NCBI GenBank assembly: GCA_951406725.2
Contig: OX597820.1
Span: 3,596,001-3,660,000, forward strand
Origin: Octopus vulgaris
Taxonomy: Eukaryota
Direction: 5' to 3'
DNA length: 64,000 bases
Position 1 is the stretch's first letter, and the number at the start of each line of letters is the position of its first letter. Below, in pieces: positions 40,301-43,300 of this stretch. The notes beneath the pieces are model-generated. The model was given only the letters and a program-made list of their open reading frames with translations, was not told where the DNA came from and made no database searches. The translations under genes and the position numbers were made by a program.

Positions 40301-43300
40301 TTGTCACCCGCATTACATCTAGTGCTTCCTCCGAAAAATATCACTCTGGAATTAATCTCCTGCCCAGACTTTCCCTGTAGTTCCTTCAAAATGAACATGG
40401 CATTAATCTTGCCAGTCTTTGAGTTCTGTGAACATCATGGATGCATCCTCTTCCTTCCAGACCAAACATTAAATAATAAAGCAATTAAAAGAAAAAAGAA
40501 AAAAAACCCCAGCTCATCCTAACTCAAAACACAAGGTATTCCACAATTATACCCAGCTTAACAAAATATATCAAGCTAGATTTAGCAATATGCTAAAAAT
40601 AGCAACCAAATTTTCTTCAAATCATACTTTAAAAAAATGATCACGCTGGAAAAGCAGAAAGCATTTTCAAATGTAAATAAATCCATTTGGCAGGTTTCTT
40701 TGGTTCAACATTGATAATAAAACAAAAAAAGCAACAAAAAGGCTTTCCCTGAACGATGCCAGAGCAATTAAAGCTTTTTGCAACTGGTGCTCCGTTGATT
40801 AGGACAGTAAGGGTTCCAACTGGTTTAATCAACGGAACAACCTGTGTGTGAAATAAACGTGCATGTGGCTGAGTACTCCACAGACATCAGCACCCTTAAT
40901 GTAGTTCTCAGGAACTACTCATTTTTGCCAGCTGAGTGGACTGGAGCAATAAAGTGAAATAAAGTGTCTTGCTCAAGGACACAACGCGTCACCAGGTATT
41001 GAACTCACGAACCAAATATCCCAACCCATTAAGCCACACGCCTTCACTATAAAGCTTTCTGTAGGCTCTAAGATTCACAGACTTCCACGGGAAGCAATTC
41101 AAACCATCACTAAACCAAACAAACAAATTTCTAGAGTCAACAGCAACCATGATGAAATCTGCTGGTTGATCTGCTAGAAATAGCAATCAAGCCACCCTCA
41201 AATAACTCTAAAGAGTTTTAGATAAAGAAGGAGACGTTGGACACCGTATTTCCTGACATAAAGAAAGGACGATCATGACTTCAATGCATTGTGTTGTTAG
41301 AAATCTGCTTGACCAGGACTGTCCTGGGGCTAAACAACTATAAAAACCACTGAACAGGTAAATGAAAAAAAAAAAAGGTCTTAACATCCTTACAAGTGAT
41401 TTTGGTTGAAATAAGTTGAGGGAAATAGGAAAGAAAAAAACCCCCGAGAATTTCACTTTGCACCTAAACGTGTCATAACGATAGCTTGACTACAGTTAAA
41501 AGCGATAATGCTGAAATAGGCTGTTTACCAAAATGCTGAAGCGGCAGAGTCAATGTAGGGAGCATTAATAATCATTACAGAACAAGCCCTCCCCCCTCAC
41601 CTCGTCACAACTGACCGCAAAACGAGGAAGTCTAAATATAGAGACACTTAAAGGGTTAACAAAAGTGGTCGGAAGAAACAAAAACACAAAAAAAGAATAA
41701 TATGAAGTGAGATAAGCAGGGCTGTGGAGCTGAAACAAAAGACTTTCACTCCCACTCTTCTACTATTGGCGACTCTGACTCCTCTTCATGTAATTAAGTG
41801 ACTCTGGTCTGCATATCTTATAAAGCATATGCATGCACTTATACTCTGAGTAGGCCCATGGGTTATAAAGATATTGTGAGTCGGAGTTGGTAAAACTACA
41901 CTGACTCCGACTCCAGCTACCCTCTAATTGTTTCTGACTCCGACTGACTCCACAGCCCCAATGACATCACAGTACTGACAAAATTTCAAAAAGGAATATA
42001 AATCCTTAGGCCCAGATCTTATAAGGACATCCTTGCTCTTCACTTTCCCCAAAGAAATCAAACTAGAAACTCTGAAAATTAGTTCCCATAACAAGACATT
42101 TTGTGTGGATGTACATATATCTATATAATAATCACCATCATCATTTAATCTCCATGTTCCATGCTGACATCGGTTGGATGGTTTGATAGGAACCAAGAAC
42201 TGCCCCGTGCCTGCTGCTTTGGTGCACTTTCCACTGCTGCATGCCCTTCCTAATACCAACCACTTTACGGTGCTCACTGGGTGCACTAGTGGCATTATCA
42301 TGAAGACTACAAACCCTGATGGAGAGGTGGGGAGGCAGCCAGGAGTTGAGGAGGTCAAGTATGAAAATACGAGGAGAGGAGAGAACAGATTCTTGAGAAG
42401 ATATACACATGTGTGTGTGTGTGTGTGTGTATCATCATCATCATCATCGTTTAGCGTCCGCTTTCCATGCTAGCATAGGTTGGACGGTTCAACTGGGGTC
42501 TGGGAAGCCAGAAGGCTGCATCAGGCCTAGTCAGATCTGGCAGTGTTTCTACGGCTGGATAGACACACACACACACACATATATATATATATATAGATAT
42601 ATATATATATATAGATATATATGGCTCAAATGTATAGAAAACAAAAGACAGAGACAGGTGAGGGAACAGTAAGCAGGTGTATTAGTTTGAGGCTCAGGAA
42701 AAATGGAAAAGCCTTTGATGTTTCAAACCTAGGCTCTTCAACAGAAAGGTTATGAGAGGACAAAATGGGAGAGAGAAAAAGAATTCAGTTCTATATTTAA
42801 GAGAAGAGGAATTATGTACATTACTTACATTTGACAGACATTTGTCGTCATCTTGTTTGTTGTTAACACAGCGTTTTGGCGGAGATACCCTCCAGCCTTC
42901 ATCAGGTGTCTTGAGGAAATCTCAAACCTGGGTTCTCATTCCTAAGGTATTTTTTGATGTTATTATTATTATTATTATTCAGGTCACTGCCTGGAATTGA
43001 ACTCGGAATTTTGAGGTTAGTAGCCCATGCTCTTAACCACTATGCCATAATAATAATAATATAACCTCGAAAAATTCCTTAGGAATGAGAACCCAGAAGG
43101 GTATATCAGCCGAAACGTTGTGTTAACAACATACAAGATGAGGACAAATATCCATCAAATGTAAATAATGTAGAGAAAGAAATGTCAGGATTAACAATAT
43201 ACATATATATACTATGCTCAGTATAGAATTGAACACACCTGTGGTGGGGGGAAAGAATGAGATTAATAAGGATCAATAATCCCACTCTGTTAACATACAT

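What the first reader, a model, noticed from the sequence alone, without database searches (positions are those of the whole stretch)
42786..43171. Every hammerhead-SINE insertion has an inverted partial copy at its 5' end
Seen at all three loci. Copy C (-) abuts a 5'-truncated opposite copy D. Copy B is preceded by an inverted, internally deleted copy with a perfect 20-bp palindromic junction CATATGCCCATGGGCATATG (17355-17374). Copy A is preceded by the inverted fragment GGGTTCTCATTCC (about 4438-4450). No TSD or poly(A) seen. Known: inverted truncated terminal repeats are typical of Penelope-like insertions, not of LINE-driven SINEs. Inference: a tRNA SINE mobilised by Penelope machinery.
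Basis: partly seen in the sequence, partly recalled or inferred. Interest (0 to 1): 0.75.

Follow-up and report, generated by a model that had tools for sequence, protein, structure and literature searches.

The report
Penelope-driven tRNA SINE in octopus
A highly repeated 265-base element in a likely octopus genome joins a tRNA-like promoter head to a Penelope-type ribozyme motif and optional end-tail, and sits in head-to-head inverted pairs, so it is likely a SINE copied by Penelope enzymes rather than by the usual LINE enzymes.

Summary
Three insertions of a ~265-bp element (tRNA-like A/B-box head, minimal hammerhead, 31-bp tail) each have an inverted partial copy at the 5' end: 3 of 3, against 1 of 54 insertions of other SINEs in the window. 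Locus A is weak (17 bp). 'No TSD' is wrong at B: a 6-bp duplication encloses the whole inverted-plus-main unit, so it was one event. Public contigs show 3' ends piled at two sites 31 bp apart, with unrelated AT-rich flanks and no poly(A), which is the Penelope 'tail' signature. In spurious ORF calls of a sister family, 44 of 207 have an inverted copy upstream and 0 downstream; the tail is on exactly one arm in 19 of 21 scoreable pairs. The tail-less arm often reaches further 5' (13 of 23), which favours two separately primed cDNAs over fold-back. Best reading: a Pol III-headed, non-autonomous element mobilised by Penelope machinery. Not shown: genome-wide inversion frequency, transcription, ribozyme activity, the autonomous partner. 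I found no description of such a pairing in 10 literature searches; Repbase, Dfam and SINEBase could not be checked.

The parts
42786..43049 (-). Copy C, main arm (264 bp; lacks the first ~5 nt of the head; carries the tail)
42982..43049 (-). tRNA-like head of C; A box 43047-43037, B box 43002-42994, 34 nt apart
   Evidence: 0 mismatches to generic boxes, 0 of 1000 shuffles as good; Rfam tRNA 14.9 bits, below the gathering score of 29
42865..42910 (-). Minimal type-I hammerhead motif; predicted cut between 42870 and 42869; C has a G12 change, the majority of public contigs has the intact base
   Evidence: table 3; features as in PMC4209133
42786..42816 (-). 31-bp optional tail; contig ends pile up at 42786 and 42817
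   Evidence: table 7, 63, 84
43047..43172 (+). Copy D, inverted partner of C: headless, 35-bp internal deletion near 43096, tail-less; 3-nt overlap with C at the junction
42774..42783 (+). Possible left TSD of the C/D unit (9 of 10 to 43172-43181; AG-rich, inconclusive)
17366..17619 (+). Copy B, main arm: complete head from tRNA position 1, 7-bp deletion, tail present
17304..17363 (-). B', inverted partner: first ~11 nt of head joined to the segment just downstream of the predicted ribozyme cut; tail-less
17355..17374 (.). Perfect 20-bp palindrome at the B'/B junction, centred two bases before tRNA position 1
17298..17303 (+). Left TSD of the B unit (partner 17620-17625), inside a MITE-like host repeat
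   Evidence: four host paralogues carry the motif once
17620..17625 (+). Right TSD of the B unit
4455..4687 (+). Copy A, main arm: near-complete head, no tail (ends 3-5 nt short of the tail boundary)
4434..4450 (-). A', 17-bp inverted fragment of the element body, 4 nt from the head of A

Best explanation
This is a short non-coding retroelement with tRNA-type A and B boxes, a minimal hammerhead motif and an optional 31-bp tail, found in head-to-head pairs; it is likely transcribed by RNA polymerase III and likely copied by a Penelope-like reverse transcriptase/GIY-YIG endonuclease supplied in trans. Shown: the anatomy, two 3' end sites 31 bp apart, 5'-side inversions with a different junction at each locus, one TSD around both arms at B. 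Inferred: Pol III starts at the head, so the RNA holds one monomer and the inverted arm is made anew at each insertion. The Penelope enzyme would bind the hammerhead-to-tail region, nick both target strands and prime two cDNAs at the two internal start sites (one at the tail end, one at the tail boundary). The two cDNAs would grow towards each other and be joined at their 3' ends by microhomology, sometimes after a ~12-nt hairpin fill-in at the head end (locus B). That gives a head-to-head unit with the tail on one arm, a short TSD and no poly(A). The ribozyme is probably inherited as part of the recognition signal and need not cut.
For: A/B boxes at 34-38 nt spacing in 3 of 3 copies, matched by 1, 0 and 0 of 1000 shuffles; no T4 run on the sense strand except at B's deletion, three on the antisense strand. 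The three main arms start within ~5 nt of tRNA position 1 and B pivots there. Contigs laid: 13,039 / 6,901 / 9,912 / 587 in runs X1 / X3 / X7 / X10; loose ends at 42786 (199, 171, 228, 7) and at 42817 (66 in X7, 6 in X10) with flank agreement only 0.42-0.51, A/T-rich. PMC11167929 (parts 1-2 read) shows in vitro that the tail is the stretch between two internal RT start sites, that both target strands are nicked and extended, that AT-rich DNA is preferred and that ribozyme mutants still insert. Inversion 3 of 3 versus 1 of 54. TSD around both arms at B, as in PMC3846280 (passages: inverted pLTR, 31-bp tail on one, 8-10-bp TSD, palindromic junctions). Sister family F2, seen only as ORF calls: 44 of 207 antisense upstream, 0 of 207 downstream (best shuffled score 48 versus cut-off 55); sense matches end at two places about 11 codons apart (51 and 112 of 207); tail on one arm only in 19 of 21 scoreable pairs, neither in 2, both in 0, p = 2e-4; tail-less arm reaches further 5' in 13 of 23, tailed arm in 7, similar in 3; 11 of 207 carry the antisense reading of a fixed head end, 9 of them followed within ~15 residues by a sense arm starting at varying places, 3 after re-reading the head start as at B (read by eye).
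Against: No autonomous Penelope sharing this end was found (after the tail, 96 F2 ORFs share no continuation except tandem repeats). One ORF, P0171, runs from the F2 tail into an RT fragment (Pfam RVT_1; nearest solved relatives weak, telomerase E about 0.04), 1 of 207, possibly a nested insertion. The head scores only 15-16 bits against Rfam tRNA and ARAGORN finds none. No copy in the window has a fully intact hammerhead. The second end site is not among the shown rows for X1, and X3's row at 42811 is ambiguous (24 of 608 rows shown). Locus A has a tail on neither arm and a 6-mer repeat that excludes most of A'. P0015 (same family) seems to have a tail on both arms and P0102 may too. 23 of 44 F2 pairs could not be scored by script. 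F2 is known only from translated ORF calls of unnamed ENA contigs, perhaps one assembly, and the sample is biased towards stop-free junctions, so 44 of 207 is not a frequency.
Confidence: 0.75

Rival explanations
1. The unit is simply the pseudo-LTR of an autonomous Penelope that picked up a tRNA-like segment; the copies are solo or heavily truncated ends of a longer Pol II transcript, not a Pol III SINE.
For: Hammerhead, tail and inversion are all pLTR features (PMC8557442, PMC3846280, passages). One reading frame through hammerhead and tail is open for about 60 codons when the copies are compared, as expected if it came from a PLE ORF start. P0171 joins the F2 tail to an RT fragment. F2 shows head-to-tail partial tandems.
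Against: All three main arms stop at the tRNA 5' end rather than at scattered upstream points, and F2 has a fixed head end too. No shared sequence follows the tail in contigs or ORFs, and no long RT ORF begins with this frame. A/B boxes are intact and the sense strand lacks T4.
Confidence: 0.15
2. Same element and enzyme, but the inverted arm is made by fold-back: one cDNA snaps back on itself, is extended as second strand and is trimmed by the endonuclease at the tail boundary.
For: Perfect palindrome at B; hairpin re-reading of the head in 3 F2 ORFs; at B and C/D the tailed arm is the longer one; PMC3846280 (passages) argues for self-priming from such palindromes.
Against: A copy of one cDNA cannot be longer than it nor add a tail it lacks, yet the tail-less arm reaches further 5' in 13 of 23 F2 pairs (7 of 13 with clean junctions). 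This is a rival for the inversion step only; its confidence is conditional on Penelope mobilisation.
Confidence: 0.35
3. An ordinary LINE-driven SINE whose copies insert independently next to each other, or are rearranged later by repair, giving inverted neighbours.
For: A' could be an older remnant with A inserted at a 6-bp TSD; C and D differ at about 13% of aligned sites and share no private changes I could see.
Against: One TSD encloses both arms at B; partners end at the tail boundary; strict 5' asymmetry 44 versus 0; tail exclusivity; no poly(A) or repeat tail; other SINEs 1 of 54.
Confidence: 0.06
4. A local one-off fusion of a SINE head to Penelope debris, not a mobile family.
For: Such a one-off was reported in another genome (earlier finding e1-7811937, unchecked).
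Against: Three insertions with unrelated flanks share the same head-to-tail sequence at 82-84% identity; thousands of contigs cover the body; the frame occurs in O. bimaculoides and O. sinensis annotations.
Confidence: 0.02

Closest known systems
Insertions of endonuclease-bearing Penelope-like elements (Penelope/Poseidon; PMC3846280, PMC8557442, PMC11167929)
   Same: Minimal hammerhead, optional 30-40-bp tail on one end, inverted 5'-truncated copy, palindromic or microhomology junction, short TSD around the unit, AT-rich flanks, no poly(A).
   Different: No ORF; a tRNA-type internal promoter replaces the Pol II promoter of the pLTR; fixed 5' end; works as a monomer.
Non-autonomous PLEs (Chlamys MRC1, PMC8557442; short non-autonomous Penelopes of heliconiines, PMC6685494)
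   Same: Short, non-coding, PLE-type ends, presumed trans-mobilisation.
   Different: No tRNA head is reported in the passages read; here no autonomous partner is identified.
Schistosome Sm-alpha / Sj-alpha SINE-like elements (PMC6765202, PMC2770079)
   Same: tRNA-related Pol III promoter followed by a hammerhead.
   Different: Described as tandem repeats released by ribozyme cleavage; no tail or inverted 5' partner in the passages read; not linked to PLE enzymes there. Here the motif is the minimal PLE type and copies are dispersed.
Metazoan non-LTR retrozymes (PMC7229834; bioRxiv 10.64898/2026.07.22.740005)
   Same: Short hammerhead-bearing non-autonomous elements proposed to use PLE machinery.
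   Different: Defined by tandem arrays and circular RNAs; 'tRNA' occurs 0 times in the 2026 preprint; here a monomer with its own promoter head.
Classical tRNA SINEs, including octopus OK, OR1, OR2 (Ohshima and Okada 1994; seen only as a citation in PMC4758252)
   Same: tRNA head with A/B boxes, short, very high copy number.
   Different: LINE-shared 3' tail or simple-repeat end is absent. I could not see the OK/OR sequences, so identity with one of these named families is not excluded.

Membership tests
tRNA-derived SINE | Short, interspersed, non-coding, high copy | tested here: met
   254-264 bp; 3 insertions in 64 kb; 6,901-13,039 contigs per DNA run; no RT ORF
tRNA-derived SINE | 5' head with Pol III A and B boxes | tested here: met
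   (box consensus recalled, not from a call); Rfam tRNA match weak, 15-16 bits
tRNA-derived SINE | Transcribed by Pol III | not testable with these tools
   only contigs were available; no RNA holder on record
tRNA-derived SINE | LINE-type 3' end: poly(A), simple repeat or LINE-shared tail | tested here: not met
   sharp ends into unrelated flanks; no LINE library was available to test homology directly
tRNA-derived SINE | TSD directly flanking each monomer | tested here: inconclusive
   B: TSD around the two-arm unit, none around the monomer; A: 6-mer around the monomer; C/D ambiguous
Penelope-like element (EN+) | Minimal type-I hammerhead in the terminal repeat | tested here: met
   core, extra base after A9, G10.1-C11.1, palindromic stem III, 4-5-bp stem I (majority bases); no Rfam hammerhead hit
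Penelope-like element (EN+) | Optional 30-40-bp tail at one end | tested here: met
   31 bp
Penelope-like element (EN+) | Inverted 5'-truncated copy adjacent to the 5' end | tested here: met
   3 of 3 in window (one weak); 44 versus 0 in sister family
Penelope-like element (EN+) | Head-to-tail partial tandems (pLTR) | tested here: inconclusive
   0 of 3 in window; present in sister-family ORFs; two 'goes back' joints
Penelope-like element (EN+) | RT plus GIY-YIG ORF | tested here: not met
   none in or next to the copies; so not an autonomous PLE
Non-autonomous PLE | End shared with an autonomous PLE of the same genome | tested here: inconclusive
   no partner found; P0171 is a single lead; genome not held
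Non-LTR retrozyme | Tandem array with a hammerhead in each unit | tested here: not met
   dispersed monomers and inverted pairs
Non-LTR retrozyme | Self-cleavage and circular RNA | not testable with these tools
   needs RNA assays

The most novel reading that the evidence does not exclude
Octopuses carry a group of true Pol III SINEs (at least two related families) whose partner is a Penelope-like element, not a LINE: a SINE class not found in my searches. Their many short paired insertions record how Penelope inverted repeats form: two target nicks prime two cDNAs at two fixed internal sites, so each insertion has exactly one tail, on either arm.
Probability: 0.55. Interest if true: 0.82.

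Novelty: new variant of a known kind. Interest (0 to 1): 0.68.

Why it matters
SINEs are described as passengers of LINEs. A tRNA-headed element that uses Penelope enzymes would extend the SINE life style to a third retroelement class, and would show that the hammerhead-to-tail region is enough as a cis signal. How Penelope inverted repeats and the one-sided tail arise is called undefined in PMC8557442 (passages). A short, abundant element with a fixed 5' end makes that question countable in any octopus assembly, and the one-tail rule with the longer arm often tail-less already favours two separately primed cDNAs. For annotation, such copies produce spurious proteins and may be filed as SINE or as Penelope in repeat libraries.

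Tried and rejected
Own genome: not held. Exact DNA patterns found nothing in metagenome contigs, genome contigs or viral contigs. Read laying gave no cover of the head side, so only one opposite-strand joint was listed and no inversion frequency can be drawn; summed depth was not used as copy number. No RNA holder listed; X10 is only guessed to be RNA. Loose-end rows at 42831 and 42870 and joints near 42870 coincide with private changes in copy C and were not used, so the idea that breaks cluster at the ribozyme cut is untested beyond B'. Rfam: only U6 at gathering level; MIR7533 and MIR2606 hits at C/D reflect the inverted repeat, snoRNA hits are chance. Folding: no significant z-scores for head, hammerhead or 3' stem (z -1.1 to +1.4). 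The profile-based head-to-head flag missed C/D through an over-extended alignment and was replaced. Word-index protein search with P0001 found nothing. Pfam on 22 ORF hits gave no retroelement domain. ESM Atlas on the RT part of P0171 gave unnamed eukaryotic clusters and RVT_1 at 48% of members, a lead only. P0003 and P0030 were dropped as unrelated before counting; P0025 was left out and P0057, P0147, P0199, P0240 were assigned by eye. Literature: 10 searches found no tRNA SINE driven by a PLE and no twin-priming model for PLEs; PMC5785218 was not held; Repbase, Dfam, SINEBase and subscription papers were not searchable; supplements of the bioRxiv preprint are closed and may bear on novelty.

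Full report
Setting. No genome is held for the window. It is 33-45% GC and dense in SINEs and microsatellites. A translation of the element matches an uncharacterised Octopus bimaculoides protein (P0002) and the start of an O. sinensis isoform (P0128), so the host is likely an octopus.

The element. BLAST and nhmmer find three main copies and three inverted pieces. A (4455-4687, +), B (17366-17619, +) and C (42786-43049, -) are collinear at 82-84% identity. From 5' to 3' they hold a tRNA-like head, a short AAT run, about 55 nt of body, a hammerhead motif, 53 nt, and a 31-nt end present in B and C but not A. The head has A and B boxes 34-38 nt apart with 0-1 mismatch to recalled generic boxes, reached by 1, 0 and 0 of 1000 shuffles; the sense strand has no T4 run except one made by B's deletion. 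Rfam tRNA scores are only 15-16 bits and ARAGORN finds nothing, as expected of a decayed head. The hammerhead has the features that PMC4209133 (parts 1-2 of 4 read) lists for minimal PLE motifs. Each window copy has some damage (my descriptor passed only C, with a G12 change allowed), but the majority letters in public contigs restore the core (table 3).

The inversions. D (about 43047-43172) starts in the AAT run with a 3-nt overlap to C, lacks 35 bp and ends at the base where C's tail begins. B' pivots on a perfect 20-bp palindrome at tRNA position 1, re-reads about 11 nt of head, then jumps to just after the predicted ribozyme cut and ends about 3 nt short of the tail boundary. A' is 17 bp (16 matching C). 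The three junctions differ, so the partner is not part of a master copy. In one test on all SINE insertions of the window, 3 of 3 scored >=13 against 1 of 54 for three other families (p = 1.4e-4, threshold set afterwards); 3 of 1466 random 45-mers reached A's score.

Target sites. B lies in a MITE-like repeat. Joining its flanks gives a 6-bp excess over paralogue 32770, and four paralogues show the motif once, so a 6-bp TSD encloses B' and B together. C/D has a 9-of-10 candidate in AG-rich DNA. At A an exact 6-mer flanks the main copy alone, which may be chance or may mean A' is an older remnant; A is the weakest locus and has no tail on either arm.

Beyond the window, same family. Twenty public runs in 10 studies hold the locus or part of it. 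Laid on copy C, runs X1, X3, X7 and X10 gave 13,039, 6,901, 9,912 and 587 contigs. Loose ends pile at 42786 (199, 171, 228, 7) and at 42817 (66 in X7, 6 in X10), with low flank agreement and A/T-rich consensus; 24 of 608 rows were shown, X1 had no shown row at the second site and X3's row at 42811 is ambiguous. PMC11167929 (parts 1-2 of 4) shows that this optional tail is the stretch between two internal RT start sites and calls it unique to PLEs. The head side was not covered, so inversion frequency stays open.

Sister families. A profile of one open frame of the element hit 123 short ORF calls, and a sister-family query added 156, of which 120 were listed. They are spurious translations without domains (22 tested) but they record DNA structure. 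Of 207 ORFs matching sister family F2, 44 have an antisense translation upstream of the sense match and 0 downstream (89 had 25 or more residues upstream). Sense matches end at two places about 11 codons apart (51 and 112 of 207). Among the 44, a script could score both arms in 21: tail on the antisense arm only 10, sense arm only 9, neither 2, both 0 (p = 2e-4). By eye one 'neither' is a frame-switch artefact, P0102 may have both, and P0015 of the window's own family seems to have both. In 23 pairs the tail-less arm reaches further 5' in 13, the tailed arm in 7, similar in 3; with clean junctions 7, 4 and 2 of 13. Eleven of 207 carry the antisense reading of one fixed head end; 9 switch to a sense arm within about 15 residues, 3 after re-reading the head start as B' does (by eye). 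Overlapping frames of the F2 head are compatible with A and B boxes (my hand inference). Limits: no F2 DNA was seen, the contigs are unnamed ENA records that may come from one assembly, and stop-free junctions are favoured.

Mechanism. Shown: anatomy, two 3' ends, 5'-only inversion, one TSD around both arms, tail usually on one arm. Inferred: Pol III makes a monomer RNA from the head; a Penelope RNP binds the hammerhead-to-tail region and starts internally, so no poly(A) is needed; both target strands are nicked and extended, as PAc does in vitro (PMC11167929), one from each start site; the two cDNAs meet head to head and join by microhomology, at times after a short hairpin fill-in. Fold-back of one cDNA predicts that the tailed arm is always the longer, which holds at B and C/D but fails in 13 of 23 F2 pairs. 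I put Penelope-type mobilisation at about 0.9, a working Pol III head at about 0.8, and two cDNAs over fold-back at about 0.6. The partner was not found: nothing shared follows the tail in 96 F2 ORFs except tandem units, and P0171 (tail then RT fragment) is a single lead.

Comparison. The insertion anatomy is that of known PLEs (PMC3846280, PMC8557442, PMC8969392; passages). Non-autonomous PLEs (PMC8557442, PMC6685494; passages), PLE-derived retrozymes (PMC7229834 passages; bioRxiv 10.64898/2026.07.22.740005 part 1 of 5 and passages) and tRNA-plus-hammerhead schistosome elements (PMC6765202, PMC2770079; passages) are known. Octopus repeat papers (PMC13282606 passages and its one supplement; PMC8967140 and PMC4758252 passages) do not mention hammerheads or a SINE-Penelope link in what I saw. 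Ten searches found no tRNA SINE driven by a PLE. Repbase, Dfam, SINEBase and the 1994 octopus SINE paper were not available, so the family may already bear a name.

Verdict. It works like a Penelope end with its own tRNA-type promoter. It fails membership as an autonomous PLE (no ORF) and as a classical SINE (no LINE-type 3' end). New variant of a known kind, interest 0.68.

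Noticed in passing
window 21562-21942 (-): A full-length U6 snRNA copy (21942-21837, Rfam 108 bits) runs directly into a (GAT)n-tailed SINE (21836-21562): looks like a U6-SINE chimeric retrocopy made by template switching.
   Followed up: no
window 42616-42785 and 348-476: A second short repeat family with a hammerhead-like variant core, ending in (TA)n; the C/D unit is inserted into one copy. Possibly another Penelope-derived element.
   Followed up: partly
P0128 (O. 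sinensis LOC115224785 isoform X2): The first ~38 residues of this annotated 368-aa protein are a translation of the element: exonisation or mis-annotation.
   Followed up: no
P0050, P0053, P0061, P0044: A third related family (F3) with the same hammerhead-and-tail frame; P0050 begins with residues compatible with a B box.
   Followed up: no
P0171 residues 71-194: RT fragment in frame after the F2 tail; candidate piece of the autonomous partner or a nested insertion.
   Followed up: partly
window 42813-42929 (table 5): Public contigs show many different internal deletions of 32-94 bp across the hammerhead region, like the 35-bp deletion in D.
   Followed up: no
window 42800-42860 (-) and 17545-17612 (+): The tail can pair with sequence about 35 nt upstream, putting the tail boundary in a loop, like the stem-loop start site reported for PAc; folding z-scores are not significant.
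   Followed up: partly
window 44230-44400 (-): Exon encoding an FCS-type zinc finger (Pfam zf-FCS_1, E 7.7e-12); the C/D unit lies about 1 kb downstream on that strand, possibly in an intron.
   Followed up: partly
window 47566-48442: 202-bp inverted repeats (93%) around a transposase-like ORF fragment at 47678-48382; mariner-type by recall, not tested.
   Followed up: no
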